Assembly: GCA_050084515.1 (NCBI GenBank)
Contig: CM114271.1
Coordinates: forward strand, 49,600,001 to 49,664,000
Length of the DNA stretch: 64,000 bases
From: Blasia pusilla
Taxonomy: Eukaryota
Direction: 5' to 3'
The notes under the pieces were generated by a model. That model worked only from the letters and a program-made list of their open reading frames with translations, had not been told where the DNA came from and ran no database searches. Shown here in pieces: positions 20,901-52,339 of this stretch (positions are counted from its first letter, which is position 1; each line of letters opens with the position of its first letter). The translations under genes and the position numbers were made by a program.

Positions 20901-21529
20901 GGAGGATGTTGGAGCTTGGAGCCATGCTCATCCAACATGACGATGAGGATAGAGAGTTTGTGGTGGCTTACGCTAGTTGCTCGAACAATGGTGCAGAGGC
21001 GAAGTATAGCTCGTATGAGGTTGAGTGCTTGGCTGTAGTGTGGGTTGTCACGCATTTCAAGTGTTATTTATTCGATAACCCCTTGACCATTATTACTGAT
21101 CATTAGCCACTTAAGTGGATGATGGAGTCCAACAAGCTTATATGGAAGCTTGTGAGGTGGGCTCTATTGTTACATGAGTATGATTTCCAAGGGGTGCATA
21201 CACTTGGGACGCTCAACCAAGATGCAGATGGTTTGAACTGTAACCCATGCTCGAGTCAACCACATACGACTGGAGCTCAATGACATCGAGAGTGTGATGA
21301 GGAGTTAGTGCGAGGAGGACATGCGTCAGCCTATTGGGGCTTACTGGCTATGGAAAGCCACATTGTTCATACTTTGATGGCGAGGTGTGATGGAGAGTCC
21401 TTAGATCTAGAGGTTGGTGAGCAGACGACAGGTGGCCGAGATATTCACGAGGATGGAGTAGTCTTGGAGTACCTACATATTGGCAGCGTCACGAATACAG
21501 TGGGTGCTACAGAGTGGGATTGGATCTAG
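17970..21529 (+). mobile_element. Second, internally deleted copy of the DNMT-Gypsy family
   Basis: LTR-start homology at 17970-18133 to 5261-5424. DNMT fragment at 18140-18730 (GIRVLILFGGI, IDLVIDGWPYQG, YIMENMP). RT/RNase H at 19945-21529 is collinear with ~11700-13300. Confidence 0.85.
18940..19942 (+). mobile_element. ~1-kb solo-LTR-like insertion (copy 1)
   Basis: Interrupts otherwise contiguous gypsy sequence (..atgcatgatt | ggtatgctgaaggg..). Has TG...CA ends and is the reverse-complement homolog of 43690-44666. Confidence 0.7.
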
Positions 21530-24500
21530 GGGGGGACACTCTATGTATACCTCCTACATCACCTACCACATTTTGGGGTCGGAAACCCCTAACTTATAAG
21601 TGAATTTTTTTTCCTCCCCCTTACTTACTTTAAAACCATATTTAAAAAAATAATTTATGACCCCTATATTTTGTTAAGTAAATTTGTGTCCTTGATTTTT
21701 TCAGGGGCTTGAAAGTAAAGATAAGTACCCCTTCGCACAACGGTCTTGTATTGTTGCACTTGATAATAGGCTATTAAAAGCTTTCAGCAATACCCAAGCC
21801 ATTGCCAAACATAGTAATGATATGTAAGGTGGAATTATCTGCATGTTTCCATTGAATCAATATTTAGTGCAACTTCCACTTTCCCCATTACTTTGACACC
21901 TATGATGGAGAGGAATTGAACCTCAGTATCGGCCGGATGCTCATATGGCCATGCCGTCATCCCCCTAACCTATCCCCTCCCAAAACTAGCCTATCATAAA
22001 CTCAAAAAATGACTTCACACTATAACATGCACATCACTTGGGAAAAGACGATACGCTGCGGATGTAATCATTGATCACTCGTAAATCACAGTTATCCAAT
22101 TCATATATCCTGACTGTAAGACTTGGCTTCATGGGCAATCTCACATTTGAAATCACCATTTCAATGTCAATATATTGGCCATCACATGCATCATATGTGA
22201 ACAAGGTGTTGCTCTTACCTGTGCGCGAATACCAATTGCACAATATCTGACAAACACTGCCTATCTGTCCATCTTTTGGGACAGGTTGGTCCAAAAGATC
22301 AATAGGAGATCTACATCTATCCCATTGACTACCGTATTTTTGTTTGATGAATAGAATGCGACCTAATCAAAACTCTTTTGTAAGGACTATTCTGTTCTCA
22401 TCTAAGTCTTTTTTTTCTTCTCTTCTTTGACTTACTTGATCTAGTAGATGGTCCAACTTGTGTAGTAGACTAAAAAAAAACAGGGGGGCTGGTATTCTGG
22501 CAGGAGAGAGTAAGAGAGGAGAGGAAGAGAGGAAGAGAGGAGAGTCTCTCTTAAAGAAAAAGGGCCAAATCCGCCTCCTCTCTTCAAAACTTTTTGACAT
22601 ATTTGAAATTTTTTTTGGGCTTTCAAATTCATGAAATCTTTAGAAGAGAGTAGGTAGTGGTCCACATTTGGCCCTAAAAAAACCTCCTTTTTCCTGGGGG
22701 CCAAAAAAAAGTAGACATCATAAGACCACTACAAAATTTTTTCCATCACTCTCCATGTGAGCCTAAGTTTCTTAACATTACCTGTCTCGGTCTACAAAAA
22801 GCAGTGCCCATGGGTATTTTTGTTGGAGGACCACCCGGATGCCAACCTCTCTTTTTGCAGGGATTGTTTCCTGCATCATGGCCTCCCCTCAATTGCCCCA
22901 TAACCAACTTTTGTTGGTTATGAATCGTGTCTGCTCAAGACCAAAATTGTGAAATGTGAACACATGAGAGGATAATTGAACCAAAAGATTGTTAGTTGTT
23001 TGGAGTAAAGAGGAACTGATGTCCCTTCATTCAGATCCTAAGGCTGAGAAACCGAGAAGCTGCACCCCTCCCAACCCGTAAGAAAGCTCACCATAAGAAA
23101 GGAAAGATTTTTAGAAGTGATTTTCTTCCACCCTGCATCCACGACGATCTAACAGGTTGGGAATCCGAAATGGCAATCCGACAGGTAGTAGGAATCCTGC
23201 ACATCTTAGACAAGAAAAGAAGCCTACAACTGGTTTGACGAATGTAGGGGAACGAGCCAAACGTTAAGAAGCCCGCCACAATGCATCAGAAGTTGGTCTT
23301 ACAGGGAAAGAGTCCGATCACTCAAGCAGTCAACCTGTCGGAATCCGACAGCTTGCCTGGAAATGGTTGAAAAGTTGCAGTGGGCAAAAAGCAAAAAGTT
23401 GCAACCCGTCGGAATCATACAGGTTGCAAAATTGTAATTCTGAGTAGCTAAAAGAACACAATCCACAAGTCCAACAAAATATTCCAGCAAACTTTTACAA
23501 ACACCATTATGGGTTGAAAAAATCTCGTCCTTTATTACCTCCGAAGGAACCTCGGAAATGTACATTTGACCTAGTCTATGATTTCTTCAGCCTCGTCATC
23601 TACACATTTACTCCTAACTCTCCTCGGTGACAGTACAAAAGGAATGTCCTAGGATACAAGTGGCTCCTCTGGCCGATTGTAGACGGGGATAAAAAATGTT
23701 GGCGAATTCGAGAGCCTTGGCCCCCCCCTAGGTACGCCATAACGGTCCCATGTAACCTGATTTGAGTCCCACCACCTTCCTCAGCAGTATACCTTGTACG
23801 CTCTGCAATGTGACACCCATCCAGTATCAATATGTGCTCCGTCCTTGGTAATACCATGATGGCAATTGCACAGGTAGTAGGAATCCAACACGTCTGAGAG
23901 AAGAAAAGAAGCCTACGCTTTGCAATGCGAGTTGAGGGAAGGTGCCAAGGGAAGAAGCCCTCAGATCGCCTCTTAAGTTGGACCAACAGGAAAGAGTCAA
24001 TCAGCGACTGTCGGAATCCGGCTGGGTTGCGTGGAAGTGGTAAAAAGGTGCTGTCGTCAAAAAGTGAAAAGTTGCAAGCAGGAGAAATCCGACGGGTTGC
24101 AAAATAGAAGTCCGCGGAGTACATAGACGATCACATTTGAAAAGACATAAAAAATGTTCAGCAAACTTTTACAAGCACCACCATCATCGTTCGAAAAAAT
24201 CTTCTCCTTTATATCATCTGAAAAAAGCTCGAAACTGTACATTTGATCTATTCTATGAAATCTTTTGCCTCATCATCAAAAAACTCCCTACTCCAAACGC
24301 TGCAGTCAAGCTAGGTCGTTGAGTTCTTTGAACTCACTCGTCATCATCCGAGAGCTCTTGCAAAATTACTTTCGGCCTTGCCCTCCCAATTTTCGGAATC
24401 GTTGGAAGTGACGATGGAGTCACTACCAATGGTGGGTCTGGAACCGGAGCTCTCGGCTTCGGTGGAGAGTTGTACGTCCCAACGAGCCTTTCGTATTTTG

Positions 24501-24939
24501 CATTTTCCTCCTTGCAAAGGTCAAACAGTTCCTGCCTTCCCTTGAGGTAGAGAATGTTCCTGCCACTCTGCTAGGCGCCTTTGATACTTGCCCCTCAAAG
24601 TCCCACTAAGTCGAACACCAAGTCACCCGGCCTTGAGCAGAGCTCGATGAGCGTTTGCATAAGGGCTGGTGATATTTCCCTTCCTCCCAGAAGTGGGGTA
24701 CTGTCTTGCATGTAAATTCCCGGGGGGGAATTGTACAAACTATCTAAGCTGTACCCATCTGAGCATGCATCCACAGGATCCTGGATCTTGAACACCTGGA
24801 AATTGTGCTCGGGCCGAACGAAGCAGTACACGTAGGAGTGGTCCATCTGTAAAGAGGCACGTTGGAAACAATGTCAGCAACTAAAGAAGTCGACTTGACC
24901 CTAGAGAACTTTTTCAATTACTAACTTTGGATCAACCTG

Positions 24940-25310
24940 TCAGAGTCCGACGGGTTGTTTTGTCCCTGACCAACCCGTCGCCTTCTGATGGGTTGGTCGG
25001 GACAAAACAACTTTCCGTCGGGCTCTCCGTTGTTTTTGTCCGTGAGCAACCCGTCGGAAGGCGACGGATTGCTGGCCTAGAGCAGCCCATGCTCGGCTGA
25101 GAGCAACCCGTCGCTTTCCGGGAACACAAGGAAAAACCAAAAGCAACTGCAACCCGTCGGGTTCCGACGGGTTGCAGGTACACCATGGTTTTCCCTGTGT
25201 ATCTGGGAAAGATGCAACCCGTCGGAAACTGACGGGTTGCTCTCAACCGAGCATGGGCTGCTCTAAGCCAGCAACCCGTCGCCTTCCGACGGGTTGCTCA
25301 CGGACAAAAA
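24940..25310. repeat. Intronic palindrome cluster forming a long fold-back
   Basis: Multiple CAACCCGTCGGNNNCCGACGGGTTG units; 25030-25115 is an inverted copy of ~25225-25310. Confidence 0.9.
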
Positions 25311-26554
25311 AAACGGAGATATACTATCTGAAATTAACACTCATTGAGCCTTACCCGAATTTGAAAATATATTTGAGATTATACTACAGGAATTGAGCCT
25401 TACCCGAATCTGACTCGTCGCGAATCGGAGTGGGTACTCATTTTTTATGATCCACGATTGCGCCAAATGGGGCAATTCTCCACCTCCCAATCGGACATGT
25501 GCTGCCCCATCTCCATGTCGTACATGGAGAATGTCTCTCCATCAGGCGGCGAAGCCCACAATTTCAAGGCTGCCGGTAATTTTCCCCAGGTACTTGCATT
25601 CTTACACTAGACGAGGTACCTGAAGACCATCCGTTGGGCAGCTTTTACTCGAACTGAATCGGCCGTCTGCTCTTGTAGATCTCGCTTCTTCTTTGCTTGA
25701 TCCCGCTTGTTCCCCTCGATTTCTTTGTCAAGCTCTGCCTGAGGGAGGACGCAAACCTTGAACATTGTCTTGAATCCTGGGTTTTTGATTGGCTTGTCCC
25801 GGATGTCGTCGAGCCAAACCTCGAAATCTATAGAACTTTCCAGGTTTGCTTCATCCGAAATGGGCTCTAATCTTTTGAGCTCCGCTTGTAGACCATCCAG
25901 CACGGACTTCCCGATAACCCGCAACGCGTCCCAGAATGACCATTCGCGTAGTCAGTGGGAGATCACTGGATCGGACATACCCGGAGGATGGTGTGCCGCC
26001 CTCTTCTGGGCCTCTGTGCCCTCGAGACTGATTTTCATCAGTCGGATCCTCCTAAACTCCCTTATGCCGGACAACGCAAACCGATGCACGCGATCCGGGG
26101 AACACTTTCTCCCCAATCCGACCTTGCGGATCTTCATCCTTTTCGGGCGCTTGATAATCGCCTTCGGCTCCTTGTAAAACTCCACCAAGTTCGGGGTTGA
26201 GAATCTTGATGTATCGCGCATCTTGCTAGCCGTGTATTTCGTGGATGAGATATCTGCGGCTTGATGAATTTCGCGCTCGGCCGGATACTTTCTCCCTCGC
26301 TCCGGCTCGGTCGGCGCTCTTCTTCGGGCTTTGTATCTTTCAGCAAAGGATGGTTACGGTTGCATCTTGGGAAATAAACTTATTTGCCCAAGTTTTCTTT
26401 TTTATCGAGCACCCTTTGCAAGCATCGATTTTGGCGTCGCCAAGAACCCCTTGTACTCTCCCGGGTGCGTCGTAAGCACCTTCTTCACCCGGTCGCAGTC
26501 CTGGATCCAGTGGTGGGTGACATTCCCCTCCGATACAATCCTGCACATCCAAAC

Positions 26555-27185
26555 TCAACCCGTCAGAAAAATTTGTAAGTTACATGGGTTCCTGCAACCC
26601 GTCAGACTCTGACGTGTCGTCACAGGTCAAGGTCGGATTCTAGAAACGAGGTAAATGATGCAACCCGTCGGAGTCCGACGGGTTGCATTCAGATTTGCTA
26701 ATGCCTGGTTTCAACCCATCGGACTCTAATGGGTTGTGCAATTGAACATACTAACATCAACATAGCAACCCGTCGGAGTCCGATAGGTTGCGCAATTGAA
26801 TGGAAACTTGCAATTTGACGCAAAATTTGCTAAACCAACTTCCAAATGCAACCCGTCGGACTCCGACGAGTTAATTTCGGCCAAAAATAGTTTCGAGTCA
26901 AGCAACCCGTCGGACTCTGACGGGTTGCTTTGGGCAAAAAACATACTAAACCTGCGGTCAGTCAAACAACTCGTCGGAGTCCGACGAGTTGCTTTCTTCA
27001 AAAAACATCCTGAAAAAGCGTTGAGTCGAGCAACTCGTCAGAGTCCGACGAGTTACTTTCGGCAAAAAAAAACCTAACCCATTCATCAATCGAGCAACTC
27101 GTCGGAGTCCGACGAGTTGCGTTTGGCCAAACGCATCCCAAAAATAGTGCCGACCCAAACAACTCGTCGGAGTCCGACGGTTTGC
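26555..27185. repeat. Intronic array of ~27-bp palindromes with variable spacers (copy A)
   Basis: About ten GCAAC(C/T)CGTCGGA(G/C)TCCGACG(G/A)GTTGC units at ~50-85 bp period. Confidence 0.92.
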
Positions 27186-28485
27186 AGCAAGAAGATACTC
27201 ACGTGTTCATGGCATGCATTGCCATCTCCACCGTTGCCATGTGATGAGGGAATGGATGAAGGACCACTGCCTTCACGCAAAAATGTGCCTCCAAGGAGTT
27301 GGGCCGCTCCTCTGCAAACTTGGTCCACGCCATGAACGTGTGATTTCCATCCCAGATGAAGAAATACAGATTCCTCATCCAGCTGAATTCCGTGCCCTCT
27401 ACTTGCCTTCTAAAATCCTGGTCTCTCATCCTCCAGAATGTGTCAAGCTTATCCAACTCCTCCTCCGTAACCAAGGCTTGGGTTCCATGCTCATCGTAAG
27501 GCTGAACATAGAAGGGAGGAAAGCTGTCGACGTAGGATGCTGTCGCCGCCGATTGTTTAAGCTTCGCGATGTCCTCGTCGGAATGAATTTCGCGGACGTA
27601 TTCCATTGTCCGCAATCGGCAGAGTGGAATCCTCGCGGCGTTGTGGCCCTCCATGAGTGCCATTTGCTTTACCACTTGTCAAAACCGGGACAAGATCAAT
27701 AAGCTACACTGAATTCCCAATGAATTGCAATTCACATAATTCAAAAAACCCAGATCCTCTCTTACCCGCTCAAAAATTGGGTCGGTTTCTTGACCAACCA
27801 ACTTGTCTGAGACAGAAGCTGGCAAATCGATTGGGAAATCGTTGATCGGATAGAGGTCGATGTCTTCCACCGGGCTTGGAGACGAGAATGACCGCTCTCC
27901 GGCTTCTTCGGCAATGTCCACCATCTCCACGCTGGCGGTCCTCATGACCTCGTCGTCCGTGATTTGAACTTCTGGCGTTTCCGCTATGTTGATTGTGTTC
28001 CCGGACTTCATTGGGGACATTTCCCGCATCTCAACACTTTCGGTTGGATAGGCAGGGCTATCGTCAATGGCTATCGCTTTTTCCCTCCTCGCTTTAGCCA
28101 ATTCTGCTCTCCTCACTGACGCGTCTAGACGCTTCTTTTCTCTCTTTTCGTCGGCGATCCTTTTCTTCAAGGCCTGCGACGTCTTAGCCTCTGCGTTCTG
28201 TCTATCGAGCGCCTCTTGAACACGTCTCGCAAGAAGCTCCTGGTTGTGCATCTCCGCTTCCCTTTCCCGCTCCTCGATTTCCTGCTGCCTAATTTCATTT
28301 GCCAAACGAGGCCCTGGAGATGCAGACGCAGGAGTCCTAATGGACTTCGGAGTGAAGCTCCTAGACTTGTTTGCTTCTGATTTTTTCCTCGTCATTTTTT
28401 CCGGAAATGCCTCCACCTATGTCCACGATGAATCGCTTGATCAGTCGCCTTGCTGATGTCGAGATGAGTCGCCTTGATGGGTAGC

Positions 28486-28585
28486 TCGAATCGTCTCGCG
28501 ATCGTTCAGTCGAACCGTCTTGCTCTCGTTCGGTCAAACCGTCTCGCTCTCGTTCGGTCGAACCGTCTCGCTCTCGTTCCCTCGT
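28486..28585. repeat. 24-bp tandem repeat (~4 units) in putative 5' UTR
   Basis: tcgaaccgtctcgctctcgttcgg repeated; appears as SNRLALVR x4 in the ORF track. Confidence 0.85.
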
Positions 28586-28702
28586 ATCGACTCGCGATGA
28601 CTCGCCGTGTGAAACGCCCCTTGGTATCTGATCAGTTGCTGCGCGGGAGAGAGAGGAATGGAGATCGCGAAATGAGAAACCGGAAATGAGCGATTTCTGC
28701 CC

Positions 28703-28710
28703 TATTTATA
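28703..28710 (-). promoter_or_regulatory. Putative TATA box of ParB-MTase-like gene (copy A)
   Basis: TATAAATA on the minus strand ~290 bp upstream of the ORF start, conserved in copy B at 37199-37206. Confidence 0.55.
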
Positions 28711-28799
28711 CTTTTCTAGCCGTCGGGCTGACTGTTGGGTCCTGTTGTCCTTTCGACGGCGACGTGCCGCAGGTTACCGAAATCCGGACGTGAAAAAAT

Positions 28800-29420
28800 G
28801 GCAACCCGTCGGAGTCCGACAGGTTGCGCGCCTTCGCCGTCCTGGGTACATTGCCACGTGCGCGAGCAACCTGTCAAAGACCGACGGGTTGAGCGCCTCC
28901 GCCGTCTTTGGACAAGAACACGAGGTACCCACGCAACCCGTTGGAGACCGACATGTTGCGCGCCTCCGGCGTCTTCGGACAAGAACGGGACGTACCCGCA
29001 CAATCCGTCGGAGACCGTTGGGTTGCACGCTTCCCTCGTCAAGGGTTAACAACGCGGGCTTCCCACGCAACTCGTCGGAGTCCGACAGGTTGCACGCTTC
29101 CTTCATGTAAGCACCACAAGGCGAGGCCCTTGCGCAACCCCGTCGGAGGGCGACGGGTTGCACGCCTCGCCGTCTTTGGGCAAGTAAGTGCGGCATCCGC
29201 GGAACTCGTCGGGAACAAATGGTTTGCACGCCTCCGGCATCTTTGGGCAAGAAGGAGCGGTATCCGAGCAACTCGTCGGAGAGCGACGGGTTTCCAGCTT
29301 TGACCATGTTTGCGTTTGAAGGTAAGGCAGAAGCGTGCAACCCGTCCGAAGCCGATGGGTTGCAGGCTTCGCTTAGCTTGGGTTAATTGTTGACTTACTA
29401 GGACTCCGATGGGTTCCAAC
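28800..29420. repeat. Upstream (promoter-side) palindrome cluster, copy A
   Basis: Repeated GCAACCCGTCGGAG(T/A)CCGAC..GTTGC variants with related GC-rich spacers. Confidence 0.88.
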
Positions 29421-31819
29421 AAAATGAAGTGTGCTTCGCAACCCACGTCTCTGCTTCCCAAATCCGGTAACACATTGCAACAGAATTGAATGTGTTGCAA
29501 CAGAATTGGATCCATTGTGTCAGACAATGTCACCTACCGAATTCATCTTGTTAGTAAAAAAATCATCAGAGTATCTGTTTTCCTATTCACTATAAATTAA
29601 AAATTCTCATTCTCATTCTCATTCTTTTTCTCATTCTCACCCTCCTTCCGTACGAAATTTCTAGGAATGGATAATTATGTTAAGCTCACTTGTGGCAGTC
29701 ATCTGGCGGCCCTTCCTCAATCAGAAATCATTCGACCCCAAGCTCGTGAGTCTTTCATAGCAGTGGATGAAAATTTTCTCTCTGTTCGATTTCTTCTCCA
29801 AATTGGAACCATCTTTGTATCCAAAGATGTTAGGGTGGACGGTACGGAAGACATAATAGGTGAGACGGTCCAGCCAGTGACCTCAGACCGTAAAGTATGG
29901 AATCTCCTACCTCTAGCAAATGGTCAATATAGAGTTTACGGCCTGCCCCTGAATTCGTTTGTTTCCCAAGTAGACGGTCTAGAATTTCCTAGTGCTCCGA
30001 GCTCTACGTTTGCAACTCCAAGCTCTGCAGATCCGGGGGCTGGTATTCTGGCAGGAGAGAGTAAGAGAGGAGAGGAAGAGAGGAAGAGAGGAGAGTCTCT
30101 CTTAAAAAAAAAGGGCCAAATCCGCCTCCTCTTCTCAAAACTTTATGACATATTTGAAATTTTTGTTTGCTTTCAAATCCATGAAATCTTTAGAAGAGAG
30201 TAGGTAGTGGTCCACATTTGGCCCTAAAAAAACCTCCTTTTTCCTTGGGGCGAAAAAAAAATAGACATCATAAGACCACTACAAACATTTTGTGATCTCC
30301 TCATCTCGGTCAACAAAAAGCAGTGCCCTTGGTATTTTTGTTGGAGGACCACCCGGATGCTTACCCTAAGCATCTACTCCAAGGCATCTACTGCCTGAAA
30401 TTTCTACCTCATCTACTTCTGAACCTGCCCTAACTAAAGCCTCTTGAGCAACATTGATGGCATAGGATCGACTTGTCTCTTGGACATGCTTGAAGGTGAG
30501 ATCTACCACTATATTCTTCCCATGCTTGCTTCTTCTCAATCTGGTTCGAGCCCCGCCCTCAGTTCACACCTCCACTTAGCTCCACCTACACAAATCTTCC
30601 AGAAATCACTCCTTGGATCCTCTCAACTCCATAGATCTCTCCCTTGGATTCTCAAGCTTTATGGCCTTCAAATGAGGTCCTCTAGGCTTCCATGAGGAAT
30701 CTTCTAGCCCACAAGAGTCCAAGCATTTGAGCTCAGCCTCCATTGACCTCTTCTTAGCCCCTTATTCTTCATTTCTTGGCCCTAACAATCAGATCCACCC
30801 CCTTGGTTCAAACCCTCCTCTACAACAACAATCAAGCACTCTATCTCCTTCATTGGATACCCTGGAGACTCCCTAGTGCCTACACCATTTCCCTTGTCTC
30901 CTCTAGGCTTGAGGTCAATGGAGTGACTTGGCTGCATTATCACCTTGTACAATCTTCTTGACTTGTTCTTGGACAGCCTGCTGCTGGGCCTTTCTCTTGC
31001 ACCACCTCCACAAGTCCAAAAAACATATTCCAGAAAACTTTTACAAACACCATTATGGGTTCAAAAAATCTCGTCCTTTATTACCTCCGAAGGAACCTCG
31101 GAAATGTACATTGAACCTAGTCTATGATTTCTTCAACCTCGTCATCTACAAATTTACTCCTAACTCTCCTCGGTGACAGTACCAAAGGAATGTCCTGGGA
31201 TTCAAGTGGCTCCTCTGGCCGGTTGTAGACGGGGATCGAAAATGTTGGCGTCGAGAGCCTTGGGCCCCCCCTAGGTACACCATAACGGTCCCATGTAACC
31301 TGTCTCGAGTCCCACCGCCTTCCTCGGCAGTATACCTTGTACGCTCTGCAATGTGACACCCATCAAGTATCAATATGAGCTCCGTCCCCGGTAATACCAC
31401 TATGGCAACCGCACAGGTAGAAGGAATCCAACACGTCTGAGAGAAGAAAAGAAGCCTACGCCTGCCTTTACGAGTTGAGGGGAAGGTGCCAAGGGAAGAA
31501 GCCCGCCAAATTGCCTGATCCGAAAGGGTCCGATCAGGCAACCTGTCGGAATCAGACAGGTTGCCTGGAGGTGGTAAAAAGGGTCCAGTGGTCAAAAAGC
31601 GAAAAGTTGCAAGGAGGAGAAATCCGACGGGTTGCAGTGGTCATAAAGTGAAAATTGCAAGCAGGAGAAATCCGACGGGTTGCAAAGTAGAAGACCGTGG
31701 AGTACATAGACGATCACATTCGAAAAGACAAAATGATCACTAAACATTTACAAGCACCACCATCGATCGAAAAAGTCTTCTGCTTTATATCATCCGAAAA
31801 AAGCTCGGAACTGTACATT

Positions 31820-34800
31820 TGATCTATTCTATGAAATCTTTTGCCAAATTATCAAAAAAATCCCTACTCCAAACAAGCAGCTGCGGTCAAGCCGGTCGTT
31901 GAGTTCTTTGAACTCACTCGTCATCGTCGAGAGCTCTTGCAAAATTACTTTCGGCCTTGCCCTCCCGATTTTCGAATCGTTGGAAGTGACGATGGAGTCA
32001 CTACCAAGGGTGGCTGGAACCGAGCTCGGCTTCGTGGAGAGTTGTACGCCCAACGAGCCTTTCGTATTCTCCCTTTGCCTCCTTGCAAAGGTCAAAGCGA
32101 TTCGCCTTCCCTCGAGGCGAGAATGTTCTGCCCACTCGCCAAGCGCCCGATACTCGCCCGTGAAAGGCCCACTAAGTCGAACACCAAGTCACCCGGCCTT
32201 GAGCGAGCTCGATGAGCGTTGCATCGGTCGGGCGACTTTTCCTTCCTCCCGAAGCGGGTATCTTTGTCTTGCATGTAAATTCCGGGGAATTGTACAAACT
32301 ATCTAAGTTGTACCCATCGAGCATGGATCCACAGGATCCTGGATCTTGAACACTGGAAATTGTGCTCGGGCGAACGAAGCGATGAGACGTAGGAGTGGTC
32401 CATCCAAATCAAAGACGAAACAATGTCAGAAACTAAAGAAGTCGCCTTGAGAAGATTTTCAATAACTGACTTTGGATCAACCTGTCGGAGTCCGATGGGT
32501 TGTTTTGTCTCGGACCCACCCGTCGGAACCCGACGGATTGCAATTGCTTTTGGGTTTTCCAAGTTGATTTTGGTTTTCGGATGCAACCCGTCGGAAGGCG
32601 ACGGGTTGCTGGCCTAGACCAGCCCATGCTCGCCTGAGAGCAACCTGTCTGATAGCAACCCGTCGCTATTAGATGGGTTGCATCCAAAAACCAAAATCAA
32701 TTGCAACCCGTCGAGTTCCGACGGGTTGCAGGTACACCGCGGTTTTCCCTCTTTATGTGGGAAAGATGCAACCCGTCCGAAACCGACGGGTTGCTCTCAG
32801 CCCGAGCATGGGCGCTCTAAGAACCCGACAACCGTCGCCTTCCGACGGGTTGCTCACTGACAAAAAACCCAGGATCGACTCTCATTCTACACATCATTAT
32901 AAGATAATTGAAATTATTATACAGAATATAGCCTACCCGAATCGACTCGTTGCGGATCGGAGTGGGTACTCATTTTTATGATCCATGATTGTGCCGTCCT
33001 CCACTTTAGCGACCTCTTGACGACCTTTGGAGGTTGAAGATCTCATCCTCGCTCCCTCCGGTCAACACCAAGAAGCAGCCCCTGTCACTCGAGATAGGCG
33101 TCGCAAAGGAGAACAAAAGTGCAATCTGGTCATAAGTGAGCGGCGATTCCACTCGGTACCTCGTCCGCAGGATTTTCACCCCAAAGTCGCAACCCGAGGG
33201 CAGATCGGCGATCAAGAGATCCACCGCAACCTCTTCCACCACTCCATTCACCGCCCGGCAGCGTGCCCGTTTGTTGGAGCTTCCTTCCCAGCGTTGTCAA
33301 TTTTTCGATGGCGTTGTCGACGCTTGAGAAGCGAAAGTATTCGGCTCATCCAAGAAAGAGGTGTGGCGAAGGAGGACGCTTGTCCGGTCGTTGTTTTTCT
33401 GTGTCTTCCCAAGGATGATGGGCTGTATTCTCCTTGGGACAACCGGGCACCTCTCGCTTCCGCTTCTCTCTAGTCTGGGGACGGCTTGTCGGGGTTTCGA
33501 TGACCTCGGATTCTGGTGGCGTTTTTCTCGCCGAGGACCTGGTCCGACCCTCTCTTCCCGCTCGTCCGGACGATTCCGCCTCTGGCCTCTCATCTTCAGG
33601 CTCTCTTTGGGAAGTCTCGGCCTCTGAATTTTTCCCTCCCCTCGCCTTGCCTTTGAGACCATTTGTGGATTTGTCTTTGCTGTCCAGGACCTTGAAGCCA
33701 ACTCAACTGTCTCGTGGGCCCGCTCTTCTGCATCTCCTCCGAAGAAGTCTTCAGTGGACAAAATTGGGGATGTCGTCTTGTCGAGCCCCATCGCATCATG
33801 AAGCACTCGTAAGTCCTTATCCGCAATGTCTTCTGGTGCGTTGAAGTCGAGCCAAATGGGGCAATTCTCCACCTCCCAATCGGACATGTCTTTGCCCCAT
33901 CTCCACGTCGTACATGGAGAATGTCTCGCATCCGGCGAAGCCCACAATTTCAAGGCTACCGGCAATTTTCCCCACGCACTGTGTTCTTACACTAATGGGA
34001 CGAGGTACTGAATACCATCCGTTGGCGCTTTTAGTCGAACATTATCGGCCGTCGCTCTGTAGATCTCGCTTCTTCTTCTTGATCCCGTTTGTTACCCTCT
34101 ACTTCTTCGTCAAGCTCTGCGAGGAGGGCGCAAACCTTGAACATGGTCTTGAATCCGGGGTTCTTGGTTGGCTTGTCGGATGTCGTCGAGCCAAACCTCG
34201 TAATCTCCGAACTTTCAAGGTTTGCTTCGGCGAATGGGCTCTAATCTTCGAGCTCCGCTTGCGGCACCGTCCCAAAGACAAACTTCCCGATTACCCAACG
34301 CGCCCGGTAACGACCATTCGCGTAGCCAATGCGAGATCACTGGATCGGACACACCTGGAGGATGGTGTGCCGCCCTCTTCTGGGCCTTTGAGCCCTCGAG
34401 ATTGATTTTCATCAGTCGTATCCTCCTGAACTCACTAATCCCGGATAACGCAAAACGATGCACGCGATCCAGCGACACTTTCTCCCCAATCCGACCATGC
34501 GGATCTTCATCCCTCTTCGACGCTTGATAATCGCCTTGAGCTCCTTGTAGAACTCCGGACCAACTTCGGGGTTGAGAATGCTGATGTATCGCTGCATCTT
34601 GCTCGCCGTGTATTTTGTTGCAGCAGATACAGCAGCTTGGATGAATTTGGCGCGTTCAGACGCAGATACCTTCTCCCTCCGCTCCAGCTCTAGTGCAGCG
34701 CTTTTCTTCGCGGCCTGTATCTTCGACCAGCAAAGGATGGTTACGGCTGCATCTTGAGAAATAAACTTGTTTGCCCAAGTTTTCTTCTTAATTTGAGCAC

Positions 34801-36950
34801 CCTTTGCAAGCATCTGATTGACGAGGGCATCACCCAAGAACCCCCTGTACTCTCCCGGGTGCGTCGTAAGCACCTTCCTCACCCGATCGCAGTCTTGGAT
34901 CCAATGGTGGGTAACATTTCCCTCCGATACAATCCTGCACATCCAAACTCAACCCGTCAGGAAATTACATGGGTTCTTGCAACCCGTCGGACTCCGACGG
35001 GTCGTCACAGCTCAGCAACGGATTCTAGCAACAAGCTAAATGATGCAACCCGTCGGAGTCCGACGGGTTGCATTCAGATTTGCTAATGCCAGGTAAGCAA
35101 CTCGTCGGACTCCGACGGGTTGCTGGACTGCACGCTTTTTCGGATGTTTTTTTAAGATTGCAACTCGTCGGACGCCGACGACTTGTATGATTGAACATAG
35201 ATTTAACTAGTTGTTGGCCCAAAGCAAACCGTCGGAGTCCGATGGGTTGCTCGATAGGCCGCCTTGTGAGGTTGTTTTTTTAAGAATGCAACTCGTCGGA
35301 CTCCGACGACTTGTATGATTGAACATAGATTTAACTAGTTGTTGGCCCAAAGCAAACCGTCGGAGTCCGATGGGTTGCTCGATAGGCCGCCTTGTGAGGT
35401 TGTTTTTTTAAGAATGCAACTCGTCGGACTCCGACAAGTTGCTCGAGTGACTGCAGGTTTAGAAGGTTTTTGCCCAAAAGCAACCCGTCGGAGTCCGACG
35501 GGTTGCTTGCCTCGAATCTATTTTTCCCTAATCAACCCGTCGGAGTCCGACGGGTTGATTTCGGCCAAAAACAGTTTCGAGGCAAGCAACCCGTCGGACT
35601 CCGACGGTTTGCTTTGGGCCAAAAACTAGTTAAATCTATGTTCCATCAAACAAGTCGTCGTAGTCCGACGAGTATCAATCTTAAAAAGACATTCGGAAAA
35701 CCGTGCAGTCTAGCAACCCGTCGGAGTCCGACGAGTTGCGAAAGTGTTAAAGATACTTACGTGTTCATGGCATGCATTGCCATCTCCACCGTCGCCATAT
35801 GATGAGGGTATGGGTGAAGGACCACTGCCTTCACGCAGAAATGTGCCTCCAATGAGTTGGGGCGCTCCTTCGCAAACTTGGTCCACGCCATGAACCTGTG
35901 ATTTCCATCCCAGATGAAGAAATGCAGATTCCTCATCCAGCTGAATTCCGTGCCCTCAACTTGCCCTTCAAGTCCTGGTCTCGCATCCTCCGAATGTGTC
36001 AAGATTTTCCAAGTCCTCCTCGGTAACGAGCTTGGGTTCCATGCTCGTCGTAAGGCTGAACATAGAAGGGAGGAAAAAAGCGTCCACGAGGATGTTGTCG
36101 CTGCCGATTGTTTTAGCTTTGCGATGTCCTCGTCGGATCAGATTTGCGGACGTATTCCATTGTCCTTGCAGAGTGGAATCCTCGGGCGTTGTGGCCCTCC
36201 ATGAGTGCCATCTCGCTTTACCACCGTCGAACGGGACAAGAGGAATAAGCTACACTGAAATCCCAATGAATTGCAATTCACATAATTAAAAAACCAGAAC
36301 CTCTCTTACCAAATCGAAAATAGAGTCGGTTTCTTGACCAGCTAACTTGTGCGAGACAGGGGTGGCAAATCGACCGGGAACTCGTCGATCCGATAGAGGT
36401 TGATGTCCTCCGCCGGGCTTGAGTCGAGAATGACCGCTCTCCGGCTTCTTCGCCATGTCCACCATCTCCACGCTGGCGGTCCTCATGACCTCGTCGTCAT
36501 CGAGTTGAAGCGGTGTTGTTTCCACTATGTTGATTGTGTCCCGGACCGTGGGGACATTTCCGCATCTCAACACTTGCGGTTGGACGGCTGGGCTATCGTC
36601 AATGGCTATCGCTTTTTCCGCTCGCTTTAGCCAATTCCGCCCTCCTCACCGACGCGCCCAGGCGCTTCTTTTCTCTCTTTTCGTCGGCGATCCTTTTCTT
36701 CAAGGCCTCGACGTCTCGGCCTCTTCGTTCGTTTATCTAGCGCCGCTTGAACACGCGTCTCGCCGAAGCACTTGGTTGTGCATCTCCGCTTCCCTTTCCC
36801 GCTCCTCGATTTCCTGCTTTGCCTAATTTCATTCGCGAACGTGGCGCAGAGAGAAGTCGACGCAAGAGTCCTAATGGACTTGGGAGTGAAGCCCGGACTT
36901 GTTGGCTTGTGTTTTTTTCCTCGTCATTTTTGCGAAAATGCCTCGCCTAT
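31820..36950 (-). pseudogene. ParB/Srx-like + beta-class amino-MTase-like gene (copy B, heavily frameshifted)
   Basis: FFIWDGNHRFMAW; VDLLIADLPS (~33195-33224, motif IV-like); RPGDLVFDLVGLSRASIGRLASGQNIL (motif I-like). Intron 34935-35760 has a GTAAGT donor and TGCAG acceptor. Confidence 0.7.
34950..35740. repeat. Intronic array of ~27-bp palindromes (copy B)
   Basis: About 13 units. Includes a direct duplication (~35150-35280 vs ~35280-35410) and inverted spacer copies. Confidence 0.92.
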
Positions 36951-38573
36951 GTCCACGATTTAATCCCTTGATCGATCGCCTTGCTGATGTCGAGATGGGA
37001 GCTCGTCTCGCCTCGGTGGTTAGCTCGAATCGTCCTCGATATCGCCGGTCGAACCGTCTCGCTCTCGTTCCGTCCCTATCGACTCGCGATGTGTCGCCGC
37101 GTGAAATGCCCCTTCAGATCGATCGCTCTCTGGCGGGAGAGTGAGGAGTGAGGAATGAAGATCGCAAAATGAGAAACCGGAAATGAGCGACTTCGCCCTA
37201 TTTATACTTTTCTAGCCGTTGGGTGACCGTTGGGTCCGTCGTCCCTTCGACGGCGGCGTGCGAATGTTACGGAAGTCCGGACGTGAAAAATCGCAACCCG
37301 CCGGAGTCCGACAGTTGCGCGGCCCGCCATCTCCTGGGTGCGCCGCCACGTCGCGCGAAAGCAACCCGTCGGAGCCCGACGGGTTGAGCGCCTCCGTCGT
37401 CTTCGGAAAAGAACGCGAGGTACCCACGCAACCCGTCGGAGACCGACATGTTGCGTGCCTCCGCCATCTTGCGAACGTCGCCACGTGTGCGAGCAACCCA
37501 TCGGAGACCGACGGGTTGAGCGCCTTCGTCGTCTTCGGAAAACAACACGAGGTACCCGCGCAAGCCGTCGGAGACCGACATGTTGCGCGCCTCCGCCATG
37601 TTTGGGACGGGAACGGGACGTATTTTGGGCAATCCGTCGAAGATTGTTGGGTTGCACGCTTCCCTTATCAAGGGTAAGGAACGATGGCTTCCCGTGCAAG
37701 TCGTCGGAGTCTGGCTGGCTGCTCCCGACTATTTGACTACTCGGAAAAACTAGGGTTTTTACCTATTTTTCTTCGTTTCTATTAATTGAAAAAAAATTCC
37801 CGCACCATGATGCAATATAGGGTAAGATAAACCTAGTAACACTACTCCTAAAACCACCTACGTCATATTACTATGACTCCTCCGACGTCTAAGTCGGAAC
37901 CATCAATCTAGGCTTCTCCTCATACAAGGGGGCCGATCAGATTAATGGTGCTTAGAGAAGTGGATGTTGAGAATCCAACATAGTCTGGCATTCATTCCCA
38001 CTCCACCGCCCTTAATTCAAGATGGCAAGGGACTTCTCGATAGCCTCCATTCTTCAGCCAATAGGCCTTTAAACTTGACCTCTCAATTTTTAATAGTTGG
38101 GCAATTTTCTTTCTTAAGAACTCAGGATCCAAAACAGGTGCACCAACATAGATATAGGATTTATTTATGTAGTTGGTAACCATTGCCATACTCATAGGGT
38201 CTTGTCTACTTATCTCAATACATGACAAATCAAGATAACGCATGACTTATACTTTGAGATCACTCAACCAAGGCTCATAACCATGAAACTTGTTTTCACG
38301 ACACCCATTTGGTTTTAACTCGCATCGAGGTTTCAAATTCAGATCCTTATGTTTATTAACTTCATTTGTCCATACATCATGCTTGGATCTACTTTCCCTA
38401 CCCCTTGCATAAGTAGTAACAGTGGGACAATATGGAAATCTGAGTAAAATCACAAAATCAGAAAAACTTAAATTGCACTTTAGCAAAGTGGGAGCCCTTA
38501 AAAATTTTACTGACCAGAATTCTAGCTTTGGACAATTAATGTAGGCTAGTAAACGTGTTGAAAATTGTGGTAT

Positions 38574-46140: not shown

Positions 46141-47049
46141 AAAATAAATTCACTCCACAAATTTATACTTTCCAATTTGACCATCAATATCAAAAACATT
46201 GCTTTATTAGCTAAAATGTTACAAAAAGGGATTCTTTGAAAATGACATTGGTAAAATAATCTTTGGAAAAGAAGTTTTGCTATGACTATTTACTAATATG
46301 TTTTACTAAAGTCATAAATTACTCTACTAATCTAGGTCTAAGGTTGGGTCTGGTGGATTAAGATGTAGGCGGTAATTTGGCGGCTCAAGAGTTTGAAGTC
46401 CGATGGATCGGCAACGATTTCCTATAGAAATTGTTTCATTATCGGAGGAAATGTATGAACTATCCATGCTATGATTGATGGGTTGAGAGTTTGGAACAAC
46501 ACGCATGAGAACATCATTATCATTAGGCTCATCAACTAAGTCCACTCTTTGAACGTTCAAAGATTGTGGAGGAGCATCTTGCATAGGTTTACAAGACTCG
46601 ATGGAATAATTTTGAATTCCTACTTGTGCAAAAATCTGAGGGTGTTGGTTGTGTTAGCTGAAGCGCTAGGTAGATTCACTTCTCTCAAAGTCCTCCGTTG
46701 TTGCTCTTGGGCGTGCTCTCGAATCCAATGTTCCATTACATTATCATCTTCGTCTCTTCCAGGCCCGTCGGAGTCAACATTTTGAGTGTTGCCGATATGA
46801 GTATCCTGATTCCCTTTGATGCCAACGTGCCATAATTTCCAGATAGCAGATCCACATCCTCTAGGTCCTCATCTTGCAAGTTGAGGTTATCTTCATGATT
46901 ACCATCACGGTTTCGTGCATGTAAGCTAGACTCACTACTATCTTCTACAACCCTTCTAGCTTGTTCTTGTCCATCCCTTTCAAAAATTATTTCTCGTACA
47001 TGAGTCCTTGTCTTGATTTCTGAGAAACAACCTTGTCTCCAAACCTTGA

Positions 47050-47264: not shown

Positions 47265-47640
47265 GACAGATTTTTACTGACAAGATGAATTCGGTGGGGG
47301 AGATTGTCTGACACAATGGATCCAATTCTGTAACACATTCAATTGTGTTGCAATATGTTCCCGGATTTGGGAAGCAGAGGGTTGCGCATCACTTGAAACC
47401 CGTCGGAGTCCTGGTAACTCAGAAATTACCCGAAGCTTACCGAAGCCTGCAACCCGTCGGCATTGGACGGGTTGCACGCTTCTGCTAAACATTGTCGAAG
47501 CGAGAAACCCGTCGCTCTCCGACGACTTGCTGGGATACCGCTCCTTCTTGCTCGAAGATGCCGGAGGCGTGCAAACCGTCTGTTCCCGGCGAGGCGTGCA
47601 ACCCGTCGCCGTCCAACGGGTTGCGCAAGGGCGGATTGTG
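47265..47640 (+). mobile_element. Terminal fragment of the palindrome-rich element (third copy, opposite orientation)
   Basis: Reverse complement of ~29130-29560 (tttttact.acaagatgaattcgg...acacaatggatccaattctg), with palindromes. Confidence 0.8.
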
Positions 47641-52232: not shown

Positions 52233-52339
52233 TTTAACCCAAATGGTAAGAATTGCCATTATTATAGAAAATCCTTTCCGTGAAGTTCAATGCCTTTCAA
52301 GGAAAATGAAGTTCTGGCCCAAAGGTAAAAAATATTGAA

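What the first reader, a model, noticed from the sequence alone, without database searches (positions are those of the whole stretch)
22480..37730. Multi-copy element encoding a spliced ParB/Srx-like + beta-class N4/N6 DNA-methyltransferase-like protein embedded in its own palindrome arrays
Seen: two collinear copies of a minus-strand GT-AG spliced gene with a TATA box. Domains run charged coiled-coil, IWDGNH(R/T)FMAW, helical region, VDLLIADLP, then EKSP/EISPALMQTLIELCSRPGDLVFDLVGLxGAS...SGRNIL. Known: DGxHR is the ParB/Sulfiredoxin signature, and motif IV (DPPY-type) preceding motif I (DPFxGSG) defines beta-class amino-MTases (N6_N4_Mtase). ParB-MTase fusions are typical of phages and prokaryotes. 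Bacteria-derived N4C MTases are known in Marchantia and bdelloid rotifers. Inference: a prokaryote-derived, intron-gaining ParB-MTase module is spreading as a repeat in a plant genome with no transposase visible here. Both catalytic motifs are non-canonical (DLPS, LVGLxG), so the family may be an inactive DNA-binding version or these copies may simply be decayed.
Basis: partly seen in the sequence, partly recalled or inferred. Interest (0 to 1): 0.9.

Follow-up and report, generated by a model that had tools for sequence, protein, structure and literature searches.

The report
Decayed ParB-methyltransferase repeat units in plant
Two broken neighbouring copies of a plant genomic repeat whose single gene joins a bacterial-style ParB DNA-binding domain to a DNA-methylase-like domain and lies among arrays of its own palindromes, a kind of transposon passenger gene so far described in algae.

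Summary
Window 22484-29560 (copy A) and 30035-37722 (copy B) are collinear direct copies, 81-86% identical. A third end fragment lies at 47271-47632. Each copy carries one minus-strand gene with a TATA box and GT-AG introns. RNA reads confirm intron 26541-27202.

The domain reading also holds. Structure models of liverwort homologues give a ParB/Srx fold for the GNHR domain and a beta-class N6/N4 DNA-methyltransferase fold for the C-terminus. Motif IV is D-[LMV]-P-x across the family, not DPPY.

A 25-nt palindrome occurs 39 times in the window, only inside these units, with 0 expected by chance. Some relatives on other contigs carry arrays of different palindromes upstream of the same gene.

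Both window copies are dead: frameshifts, in-frame stops and an 850-bp deletion. Yet A and B diverged at dN/dS of about 0.28, so the family was once under selection.

No transposase was found. ParB-like plus N4/N6-methyltransferase accessory proteins, and inverted-repeat arrays beside ParB-like genes, are already reported in brown and red algal giant transposons. I file this as a new, land-plant member of that kind. Mobility, DNA binding and methylation remain inferred.

The parts
22484..29560 (-). Copy A of the repeat unit (7,077 bp; lacks about 850 bp present in B)
   Evidence: Self-BLAST blocks. Sharp ends with unlike flanks.
30035..37722 (-). Copy B of the repeat unit. Its right end is cut short relative to A.
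47271..47632 (+). Third, inverted fragment. It holds only the upstream end of a unit and abuts a Copia-like element.
   Evidence: 81% identity to 29205-29560. Two palindrome matches. RVT_2, SH3_retrovirus and zf-CCHC matches in neighbouring ORFs.
28705..28710 (-). TATA box of copy A. The same GTATAAATAGGG is at 37201-37206 in B.
27767..28395 (-). Copy A exon 1: ATG and a charged, low-complexity N-terminus. Open frame.
   Evidence: Sequence. 0 stops in frame. Donor CGG|GTAAGA. The exon-1/intron-1 border is predicted only.
27203..27667 (-). Copy A exon 2: ParB/Srx-like domain (IPLCR ... WDGNHT ... AMHAMNT). Open frame.
   Evidence: phmmer gave 123 relatives. The homologue model gives a ParB/Srx fold. 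Motif coordinates.
26541..27202 (-). Copy A intron 2, holding 7 palindrome matches
   Evidence: RNA-read joint 26539/27202 in three runs. Splice sites. Palindromes.
25463..26540 (-). Copy A exon 3: helical middle region. It has frameshifts, and its 3' part with motif IV is deleted.
   Evidence: tblastn of P0015/P0126. At least 4 stops in the best frame. Deletion seen.
24851..25462 (-). Copy A remnant of intron 3, with 5 palindrome matches
24334..24850 (-). Copy A last exon: C-terminal half of the methyltransferase-like domain with motif I (DLVFDLVGL*GAS). Two in-frame stops.
22484..24333 (-). Copy A 3' region: an internal duplication (23170-23621 / 23859-24301) and 2 palindrome matches. It has the highest RNA depth of the unit.
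28716..29400 (.). Copy A upstream array of about 66-bp units carrying the palindrome
35761..36215 (-). Copy B exon 2 (WDGNHR at 35895-35912), with frameshifts. The upper border is approximate.
34935..35760 (-). Copy B intron 2, with 11 palindrome matches
   Evidence: Splice sites. Palindromes. Not seen in reads.
33006..34934 (-). Copy B exon 3 (approximate 3' border): helical middle, linker, and motif IV-like DLPSG at 33192-33206
31913..32407 (-). Copy B last exon (approximate borders), motif I region DLVFDLVGLSRAS at 32152-32190, with frameshifts
37290..37722 (.). Copy B upstream array, with 3 palindrome matches

Best explanation
The region holds two adjacent dead copies, and the end of a third, of a repeat unit of about 7-8 kb in a land-plant genome.

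Each unit carries one spliced gene for a protein that is about 1,100-1,200 aa in full-length relatives. Its parts run in this order:
- a charged N-terminus
- a ParB/Srx-fold domain with the GNHR loop
- a helical region of about 330 aa
- a charged linker
- a permuted (motif IV before motif I) beta-class amino-methyltransferase-fold domain

The unit is studded with arrays of one 25-27-nt palindrome (GCAACCCGTCGGA-S-TCCGACGGGTTGC). The arrays lie upstream, in two introns and downstream.

Proposed mechanism. The protein is not the transposase. It is a passenger (accessory) protein of a mobile element.
- Its ParB-like part, with the helical region, binds the element's own palindrome arrays, as bacterial ParB binds parS.
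- This brings the methyltransferase-like domain onto the element's DNA, to mark it with 6mA or 4mC or otherwise set its chromatin state.
- The unit is moved in trans by an enzyme encoded elsewhere.

Shown: the copies, the gene model, homology, both folds, element-specific arrays, arrays with other palindromes in some relatives, past purifying selection, and transcription and splicing of family members.

Inferred: DNA binding, methylation, and how the unit moves.
For: Copies and ends.

Gene model:
-.
- The spliced reading continues the homology to the liverwort proteins.
- Intron 2 is confirmed by reads.
- 26 of 123 relatives end one residue after the position aligned with the window's exon-2 end, as expected if this phase-2 GT(A/G)AGT intron is shared.

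Family:
- 123 relatives at E<=1e-3, and 37 at E<=1e-10.
- Of 30 looked up, 15 are Riccia sorocarpa, 3 are Adiantum nelumboides and 12 are unnamed contigs.
- There are 26 short and 23 long Riccia paralogues.
- 61 metagenome loci.

ParB/Srx fold:
- The P0016 model has pLDDT 80-98 over residues 150-330.
- The top 5 of 48,161 chains are KorB (Z 7.7), PadC (Z 7.2, 99 aligned, rmsd 3.3), pNOB8 ParB-N (Z 6.6), Arabidopsis sulfiredoxin (Z 6.0, 89 of 89 aligned) and serine kinase SerK (Z 5.3).
- G, N and H of WDGNHR are nearly invariant in 126 sequences.

Methyltransferase fold:
- Foldseek's top hits are all beta-class N6/N4 DNA methyltransferases. M1.HpyAVI scores E 1.8e-10, and 128 matches reach E<=1e-3.
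- VIA gives Z 14.4-11.7 with 166-198 residues aligned.
- Pfam N6_N4_Mtase is above its cut-off in 2 of 10 Riccia paralogues: 31.7 and 27.0 bits against 26.7.
- PHROG phage DNA methyltransferase families score down to E 4.2e-9.
- Window exons align to this domain.

Arrays:
- 39 palindrome matches, all in the units.
- L062, an intact relative, has at least 4 upstream units of a different palindrome.
- L046, L052, L032 and L045 also have upstream arrays or long palindromes.

Selection: dN/dS between A and B is 0.28 overall and 0.11 in the ParB exon.

Precedent:
- Ectocarpus Sola1-1_Ec32 carries a 1104-aa ParB-like + N4C/N6A methyltransferase gene (PMC12477816, passages).
- Bostrychia Plavaka elements carry PAG2 and PAG3, with inverted-repeat arrays next to the ParB-like gene (10.1101/2025.02.11.637652, passages).
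Against: - No transposase, terminal inverted repeats or target-site duplications were found for the unit. That it is a transposon is therefore inferred only from its sharp ends, copy number and the algal precedent.
- Motif IV lacks the second proline and the aromatic residue of DPPY in every member seen: DLPSG in the window, DLP[ST]G or DMP[ST]G in Riccia, DVPF in Adiantum, DVPE in L062. Methyl transfer to a flipped base is therefore doubtful.
- No Pfam ParBc match in 0 of 126 members. There are only weak DndB (6 members) and DUF1015 (5 members) matches.
- Foldseek on the whole 901-aa model gave no match at E<=1e-3. The ParB Z-scores are middling (under 8).
- The methyltransferase model has low confidence (mean pLDDT 51.6).
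- Both models are of Riccia homologues, not of the window's own broken genes.
- In a TRF control, only 8 of 55 relatives with at least 400 bp upstream had an array within 1.5 kb upstream. That is 0.158 arrays per kb against 0.049 elsewhere. The four loci were picked by me, for intact ORFs or palindromes.
- The Riccia-based methyltransferase profile found nothing in the 61 metagenome loci, and it also missed L062, which does have the domain.
- RNA reads are few and mostly 90-95% alike, so they come from other copies or another genotype.
Confidence: 0.55

Rival explanations
1. Same element and the same binding to its own palindromes, but the methyltransferase-like domain is a pseudo-enzyme. The protein then acts only as a ParB-like DNA clamp or bridge that shapes the element's chromatin or holds transposition intermediates. 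It writes no base modification.
For: Motif IV is D-[LMV]-P-[S/T/F/E] in all members seen. It lacks the aromatic residue and the second proline. The motif I loop varies: DFAGGWGAT, DITASTG-GAS, DLVGL*GAS. Pfam scores sit at or under the cut-off. L062's domain gets no Pfam or PHROG match.
Against: The domain was kept under purifying selection: dN/dS is 0.40 in the last exon. It is retained from liverwort to fern. The D and P of motif IV and a glycine-bearing motif I loop are kept. Amino-methyltransferases tolerate some motif IV variation (recalled, not tested here).
Confidence: 0.2
2. Not a mobile element. It is a host gene family of non-seed plants, expanded by segmental and tandem duplication. 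The palindrome arrays are its own regulatory or insulator sequences. The two window copies are a local tandem duplicate that decayed.
For: The copies are adjacent and in the same orientation. No transposase, TIR or TSD was found. The gene has introns, a TATA box and a conserved intron position.
Against: - dN/dS of 0.28 between A and B means most of their divergence arose while both lineages were functional, not after a local duplication of a dying gene.
- The left flanks of A and B are unlike, and a third end lies inverted 17.7 kb away next to a Copia element.
- There are dozens of Riccia paralogues on contigs of at least 8 different lengths, many of them truncated.
- RNA reads 90-95% alike imply further copies.
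Confidence: 0.12
3. A self-contained mobile unit. The ParB-like domain is a nuclease, as some ParB-fold proteins are. It nicks the palindromes and so drives copying of the unit without a classical transposase.
For: No other enzyme is encoded in the unit. The palindromes lie near both ends and inside. The ends are sharp but have no TIRs.
Against: No evidence for nuclease activity. The closest folds are CTP-binding or partition-type ParB, KorB, PadC and sulfiredoxin. In algae the same kind of protein rides in elements that have their own transposase (PMC12477816, passages).
Confidence: 0.06
4. Remnant of an endogenised virus, from a phage-like or giant-virus lineage that carries ParB-methyltransferase genes.
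For: The viral structure library's best matches are phage and giant-virus N4/N6 methyltransferases, one of them named ParB/Sulfiredoxin. ESM Atlas neighbours at 0.83-0.84 are phage ParB_N+N6_N4_Mtase clusters, which is a lead only.
Against: No other viral gene was found in the unit or window. None of the 23 pattern matches in viral contigs encodes a relative. The introns are conserved across plants.
Confidence: 0.03

Closest known systems
ParB-like + N4C/N6A DNA-methyltransferase accessory protein of the giant transposon Sola1-1_Ec32 of Ectocarpus. [quoted passage not shown]
   Same: One long protein (1104 aa there, up to 1207-1244 aa in the Riccia relatives here) that joins a ParB-like domain to an N4/N6 methyltransferase domain. 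It is encoded in a repeated element. The authors propose that it binds and modifies its own element.
   Different: Here the hosts are land plants (liverwort, fern and the window's species). The unit is only 7-8 kb and no transposase is found in it or near it. Motif IV is not DPPY. Sequence relatedness to the algal proteins was not tested, because their sequences were not on hand.
Plavaka accessory genes PAG2 (PF01555 methylase + SET) and PAG3 (ParB-like + 2OG oxygenase) of the red alga Bostrychia, with tandem arrays of inverted repeats next to PAG3 (10.1101/2025.02.11.637652, passages read).
   Same: A ParB-like domain and an N6_N4 methylase domain ride on transposons. Arrays of inverted repeats lie beside the ParB-like gene and are read there as its binding sites.
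   Different: There the two domains sit in two separate proteins with other partner domains, inside elements that have a DDE transposase. Here they are fused, and the arrays also lie inside introns.
Phage and plasmid ParB_N + N6_N4_Mtase fusion methyltransferases
   Same: Same two-domain order and the same beta-class permuted methyltransferase fold. Atlas neighbours carry both Pfam families (lead only).
   Different: The phage proteins are about 400-530 aa, have no introns and no 330-aa helical insert, and carry a canonical DPPY-type motif (the last point is recalled). No sequence-level link to the ParB part was found.
Bacterial ParB/KorB with parS-type palindromes
   Same: ParB/Srx fold with a GxxR loop. 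Clustered palindromic sites on the same DNA molecule that encodes the protein.
   Different: No Pfam ParBc match. The palindromes number in the dozens and lie in tandem arrays. CTP binding, sliding and partition are untested.
Eukaryotic N4C methyltransferases of bacterial origin: Marchantia MpDN4MT1a/b (10.1101/2021.02.12.428880, passages) and the rotifer N4CMT (PMC8885841, passages)
   Same: Permuted N6_N4_Mtase-fold enzymes in eukaryotic nuclear genomes. The rotifer enzyme is among the structural matches (8s9m, Z 12.3).
   Different: Those are single- or two-copy host genes with proven 4mC activity and no ParB domain (the word ParB occurs 0 times in either paper). This is a multi-copy repeat-borne family with a non-canonical motif IV.

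Membership tests
ParB/Srx-fold superfamily | ParB/sulfiredoxin fold of the N-terminal domain | tested here: met
   Model of homologue P0016, pLDDT 80-98 over residues 150-330. The 5 best of 48,161 chains are all of this fold, Z 7.7-5.3. The Z values are middling. Foldseek on the whole model gave only weak ParB/Noc/Srx rows, E 1-2.5.
ParB/Srx-fold superfamily | Conserved G-x-x-R (DGxHR-type) loop | tested here: met
   WDGNHR in copy B and WDGNHT in copy A. G, N and H are nearly invariant in 126 sequences.
Pfam ParBc (PF02195) | Profile match at or above the curated cut-off | tested here: not met
   0 of 126 members match at E<=1. DndB matches 6 members (best E 0.028) and DUF1015 matches 5 (best E 0.0041). 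A profile of A2 against PDB sequences found no ParB.
ParB/Srx-fold superfamily | CTP binding, nuclease activity or parS binding | not testable with these tools
   Needs biochemistry.
N6_N4_Mtase (PF01555), beta-class amino-methyltransferases | Profile match at or above the gathering score | tested here: inconclusive
   The window exon scores 15.6 bits against 26.7. Among Riccia paralogues, 2 of 10 are above the cut-off (31.7, 27.0), 5 more lie between 19.1 and 26.6 bits, and 3 have no match. PHROG DNA methyltransferase families score down to E 4.2e-9. L062 has no match.
N6_N4_Mtase (PF01555), beta-class amino-methyltransferases | Rossmann-type fold with motif IV before motif I (permuted order) | tested here: met
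   Foldseek's top rows are all beta-class enzymes, best E 1.8e-10. VIA gives Z 14.4 to M.BceJIV, M.MboIIA and CcrM. The order DLPSG then DLVGL*GAS is seen on the minus strand. The model's confidence is low (pLDDT 51.6).
N6_N4_Mtase (PF01555), beta-class amino-methyltransferases | Catalytic motif IV (D/N/S)PP(Y/F/W/H) | tested here: not met
   DLPSG in the window. DLP[ST]G, DMP[ST]G or DLSSR in Riccia. DVPF in Adiantum P0073. DVPE in L062.
N6_N4_Mtase (PF01555), beta-class amino-methyltransferases | Motif I glycine-rich SAM loop (FxGxG type) | tested here: inconclusive
   DFAGGWGAT in Riccia. DITASTG|GAS in L062. DLVGL*GAS in A and DLVGLSRAS in B. The stop in A is TGA, at the place where Riccia has Trp.
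Algal transposon ParB-methyltransferase accessory proteins | ParB-like and N4/N6 methyltransferase domains in one long repeat-borne protein | tested here: met
Algal transposon ParB-methyltransferase accessory proteins | Carried inside an element that also encodes a transposase (Sola1, Plavaka, Zisupton ...) | tested here: inconclusive
   No DNA-transposase Pfam family in 65 window ORFs of at least 95 aa outside the units, nor in 141 ORFs of at least 100 aa from 19 of the 61 metagenome loci. Split, decayed or Pfam-less transposases would be missed, and the genome is not held.
Algal transposon ParB-methyltransferase accessory proteins | Sequence homology to the algal proteins | not tested
   The algal sequences were not on hand. 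Word-indexed searches returned only Riccia proteins.

The most novel reading that the evidence does not exclude
Land plants of the bryophyte and fern grade carry a selfish module that writes its own epigenetic mark. It is a repeat-borne ParB clamp that loads on the element's private, fast-evolving palindrome arrays. Through its unusual D-L-P-S methyltransferase domain it deposits 6mA or 4mC, or another modification, on the element, for example to escape or redirect host 5mC silencing. Each lineage would have a matched protein-palindrome pair, as plasmids do with ParB and parS.
Probability: 0.2. Interest if true: 0.85.

Novelty: new member of a known kind. Interest (0 to 1): 0.55.

Why it matters
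If the reading is right, passenger genes that let a transposon recognise and mark its own DNA are not confined to algae. They also occur, as a diverged and once-selected family, in land plants: a liverwort, a fern and the window's species.

The family offers matched pairs of a ParB-like protein and a private palindrome array in several lineages. This makes the proposed self-recognition directly testable by binding assays, and by 6mA/4mC calling on native long reads.

The family-wide loss of the DPPY motif also raises a question. Is this an amino-methyltransferase with a new catalytic loop, or a pseudo-enzyme kept for binding?

The two copies in this window are themselves dead and of no functional weight.

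Tried and rejected
Searches that gave nothing useful:
- The word-indexed search for longer relatives of the ParB exon found none.
- Pfam on 10 exon-sized ORFs gave only one weak N6_N4_Mtase match.
- Pfam on 10 long relatives gave nothing useful.
- A profile of A2 against PDB sequences found nothing relevant.
- Foldseek with the whole 901-aa model gave no match at E<=1e-3. The helical middle (about residues 330-660) matched only generic helical pieces, so I leave its fold open.
- No whole genome is held, so copy number, empty sites and a linked transposase could not be sought in the source genome.
- No RNA holder was listed for the stretch.
- Reads did not show the introns at 24847-25403 and 34935-35760.
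- The reads' joint 23848 to 24325, and its counterpart 23848 to 31905, has non-canonical ends. I read it as paralogues lacking 476 bp, not as an intron.
- Viral contigs: 23 pattern matches, none a relative.
- Earlier findings of the scan: nothing.
- Iyer et al. 2011 is not held. Supplements of the algal papers could not be seen; they may hold the accessory-protein sequences and element maps.

Ideas tested and dropped:
- TIRs, TSDs and Helitron-type ends were looked for by eye at three ends. None was convincing.
- The inverted 1-kb pair 18939-19935 / 43694-44667 was considered as TIRs of a larger element. I rejected this because it is a separate 1-kb insertion in two other repeats.
- The methyltransferase profile from A3 found nothing in the 61 metagenome loci. 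It also misses L062, which has the domain, so this blank says little.
- A strict scan for repeated perfect palindromes found none in the metagenome loci.
- The first try of the search for related loci with the 126-row alignment had no conserved stretch to search with.

Literature: the search for ParB-like + DNA methyltransferase + transposon + liverwort, fern or moss listed no paper holding 'ParB-like' among the 15 shown. I found no land-plant report.

Full report
**What is there**

The window is repeat-rich eukaryotic DNA. Outside the finding, 65 ORFs of at least 95 aa give only retroelement domains (RVT_1, RVT_2, SH3_retrovirus, zf-CCHC). No whole genome is held for the window.

Self-BLAST shows two collinear direct copies. 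Copy A is 22484-29560 and copy B is 30035-37722. They are 81-86% identical over four blocks. B carries about 850 bp (32995-33851) that A lacks.

The unit has sharp ends.
- The left ends of A and B both begin GGGGGCTGGTATTCTGG behind unlike flanks.
- The right end of A (...CATCTTGTTAGTAAAAA, 29560) is shared with an inverted fragment at 47271-47593. Homology stops there at the same base.
- That fragment abuts a Copia-like element.
- I found no terminal inverted repeats and no convincing target-site duplication.
- A 1-kb inverted pair that brackets the region (18939-19935 / 43694-44667) is a separate small insertion in two other repeats, not a pair of ends.

**Gene model**

The gene is on the minus strand. 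Both copies have GTATAAATAGGG (28710 in A, 37206 in B), about 315 nt upstream of the ATG. The ATG is at 28395 in A, and MTRKK lies at 36913-36927 in B.

- Exon 1 of A (28395-27767) and exon 2 (about 27667-27203) are open.
- Exon 2 ends AACAC|GTGAGT in A and AACAC|GTAAGT in B. Exon 3 starts after TGTGCAG| in both.
- Three RNA runs of the same species label show the joint 26539/27202 with GT..AG on the minus strand: 2, 3 and 2 reads.
- Depth is low: 240, 354 and 233 reads were laid, most of them 90-95% alike. Most reads have the first mate on the + strand, which in common stranded libraries means RNA from the minus strand. The reads therefore show expression of the family rather than of these two copies.
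- The spliced reading (AMHAMN-T-IVSEGNVTHHWIQD...) continues the alignment to the liverwort proteins.
- 26 of the 123 database relatives end one residue after the position aligned with the window's exon-2 end. This is what a prokaryote-style gene caller gives at a shared phase-2 GT(A/G)AGT intron.

**Relatives**

The word-indexed search found nothing. phmmer against 1.84 billion representatives, using A's exon 2, found 123 proteins at E<=1e-3 and 37 at E<=1e-10. The best scored 2.6e-21 at 35-38% identity.

Of 30 proteins looked up, 15 are Riccia sorocarpa (liverwort) hypothetical proteins, 3 are from Adiantum nelumboides (fern) and 12 are unnamed contigs.

Riccia has at least 23 long paralogues (663 aa or more) and 26 of 150-478 aa. 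The 1207-aa P0126 aligns collinearly with both window copies and nowhere else in the window:
- ParB part: 27633-27205
- middle: 26155-25463 and 34915-33495
- C-terminus: 24840-24457

One scan of metagenome contigs gave 61 loci. In many of them the ParB-like exon is broken.

One scan of prokaryote genomes gave a single contig, L062. It is filed under a cyanobacterial MAG but has GT-AG introns at the family's positions, so I read it as plant DNA. It holds an apparently intact gene with the same layout.

**Domains**

*The GNHR domain.* Pfam does not see it. ParBc matches 0 of 126 members. DndB matches 6 and DUF1015 matches 5, all weakly.

An AlphaFold model of Riccia P0016 (126-row alignment that includes the window exon) is confident over residues 150-660. 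Foldseek with the whole model gave no match at E<=1e-3, though ParB, Noc and sulfiredoxin recur among the weak rows.

The Foldseek-independent search puts five ParB/Srx-fold chains first among 48,161, all on model residues of about 150-330:
- KorB: Z 7.7
- PadC: Z 7.2, 99 aligned, rmsd 3.3
- pNOB8 ParB-N: Z 6.6
- Arabidopsis sulfiredoxin: Z 6.0, 89 of 89 aligned
- SerK: Z 5.3

The Z values are middling, but the top of the list is uniform. The WDGNHR loop is nearly invariant. I accept the fold, not membership of Pfam ParBc.

*The middle.* Residues of about 330-660 are helical, with no specific match.

*The C-terminal domain.* The evidence has several layers.
- Riccia paralogues reach Pfam N6_N4_Mtase at or around the cut-off: 2 of 10 above it, 5 below, 3 with no match.
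- They reach phage DNA methyltransferase PHROGs down to E 4.2e-9.
- A family profile finds M1.HpyAVI in the PDB at E 0.016.
- The model of P0134 has low confidence (pLDDT 51.6). Even so, its best structural matches are all beta-class N6/N4 DNA methyltransferases: Foldseek E 1.8e-10, and VIA Z 14.4-11.7 with 166-198 residues aligned. MT-A70 enzymes follow at Z 9-11.
- Viral matches are phage and giant-virus N4/N6 methylases.
- The window's exons align to this domain.

Motif IV is DLPSG in the window and D-[LMV]-P-[S/T/F/E] in every member seen. The departure from DPPY is therefore a family trait, not decay. Motif I is DFAGGWGAT in Riccia. In the window it is DLVGL*GAS in A, where the stop is TGA at Riccia's Trp position, and DLVGLSRAS in B.

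**State of the copies**

Both copies are dead.
- A and B differ by 61 indels inside exons, 58 of them not multiples of three.
- A has at least 4 stops in exon 3, two in-frame stops in the last exon, and the 850-bp deletion that removes motif IV.
- B is frameshifted throughout.
- Some 1-2-nt deletions in B might be assembly errors. Reads carry an extra base at 31928 and 33192.

Even so, substitutions between A and B are concentrated at synonymous sites: dN/dS is 0.28 overall, 0.11 in exon 2 and 0.38 in exon 1 (rough Nei-Gojobori in A's frame). Most of their divergence therefore arose while the lineages were functional. This argues against a simple local duplication of a dying gene. It argues for two insertions of a family under selection.

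**Palindromes**

The commonest 12-mers of the units make up GCAACCCGTCGGA-S-TCCGACGGGTTGC. The 25-nt core at up to 3 mismatches occurs 39 times, against 0 in all 100 shuffles.

| Where | Downstream | Last intron | Intron 2 | Upstream | Total |
|---|---|---|---|---|---|
| Copy A | 2 | 5 | 7 | 3 | 17 |
| Copy B | 1 | 5 | 11 | 3 | 20 |
| Third fragment | - | - | - | - | 2 |
| Rest of window | - | - | - | - | 0 |

Relatives also carry arrays.
- L062 has, right upstream of its gene, at least 4 units (period about 107) of a different long palindrome centred on GGGTCTCGGATCCGAGACCC.
- Four more loci have upstream arrays or long palindromes, each with its own sequence. I picked L046, L052 and L032 for intact ParB ORFs, and L045 for palindromes.

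An unselected TRF control is weaker. 8 of 55 loci with at least 400 bp upstream have an array within 1.5 kb. That is 0.158 arrays per kb against 0.049 elsewhere. Many of those loci are decayed or duplicated across samples.

**Known precedent**

- A Genome Biology paper on Ectocarpus describes, in the 21.5-kb Sola1-1_Ec32 family, a 1104-aa protein with a ParB-like domain and an N4C/N6A methyltransferase domain. [quoted passage not shown]
- The Bostrychia preprint describes Plavaka accessory genes PAG2 (PF01555 + SET) and PAG3 (ParB-like + 2OG oxygenase), with tandem arrays of inverted repeats next to PAG3 (10.1101/2025.02.11.637652, passages read).
- Iyer et al. 2016 describe chlorophyte Dam-type enzymes fused to a ParB-type HTH, and say land plants show few N6A methyltransferases (PMC4738411, passages read).
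- My five searches found no report of such a family in land plants. The library is partial, and supplements were closed.

**Verdict**

The thing is best filed as a land-plant member of the algal class of transposon-borne ParB-methyltransferase passenger genes, with element-private palindrome arrays as the likely binding sites.

Four things are not shown: that it binds them, that it methylates (the catalytic motif argues for caution), how the unit moves, and whether it came straight from prokaryotes.

Noticed in passing
L062:1-4691: A 4.7-kb contig filed in a cyanobacterial MAG carries GT-AG introns and an apparently intact copy of this plant gene family. It is probably eukaryotic contamination of the MAG.
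   Followed up: partly
window 42101-46155 and 52295-52786: Tandem satellite with self-matches offset by about 180 bp. It is interrupted at 43694-44667 by a 1-kb element whose inverted copy lies at 18939-19935.
   Followed up: no
window 10238-13305 and 18160-21526: Direct repeat of about 3.3 kb at 82-86% identity, about 8 kb apart. It could be a pair of LTRs or another duplicated repeat. Related inverted pieces lie at 51559-52294.
   Followed up: no
window 23848-24325 (and 23848-31905): RNA reads join these points with non-canonical ends. Expressed paralogues seem to lack the 476 bp that hold the internal duplicate 23859-24301.
   Followed up: partly
window 37746-37900: The stretch just beyond copy B has the highest RNA depth of the region laid (8-12x). 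All reads replace 42 bases (37800-37841) with 11 other letters. This is another expressed repeat or an allele difference.
   Followed up: no
window 56142-56537 (-): An ORF with a Walker-A-like GVPNSGKS stretch. It looks like an exon of a DnaB/Twinkle-type helicase. The resemblance is recalled, and no Pfam family reported fits it.
   Followed up: no
window 1340-4728 (-): Long ORFs of a non-LTR-type retroelement. RVT_1 matched 2 of the 65 ORFs, and the earlier scan of single ORFs gave nothing at E<=0.01.
   Followed up: no
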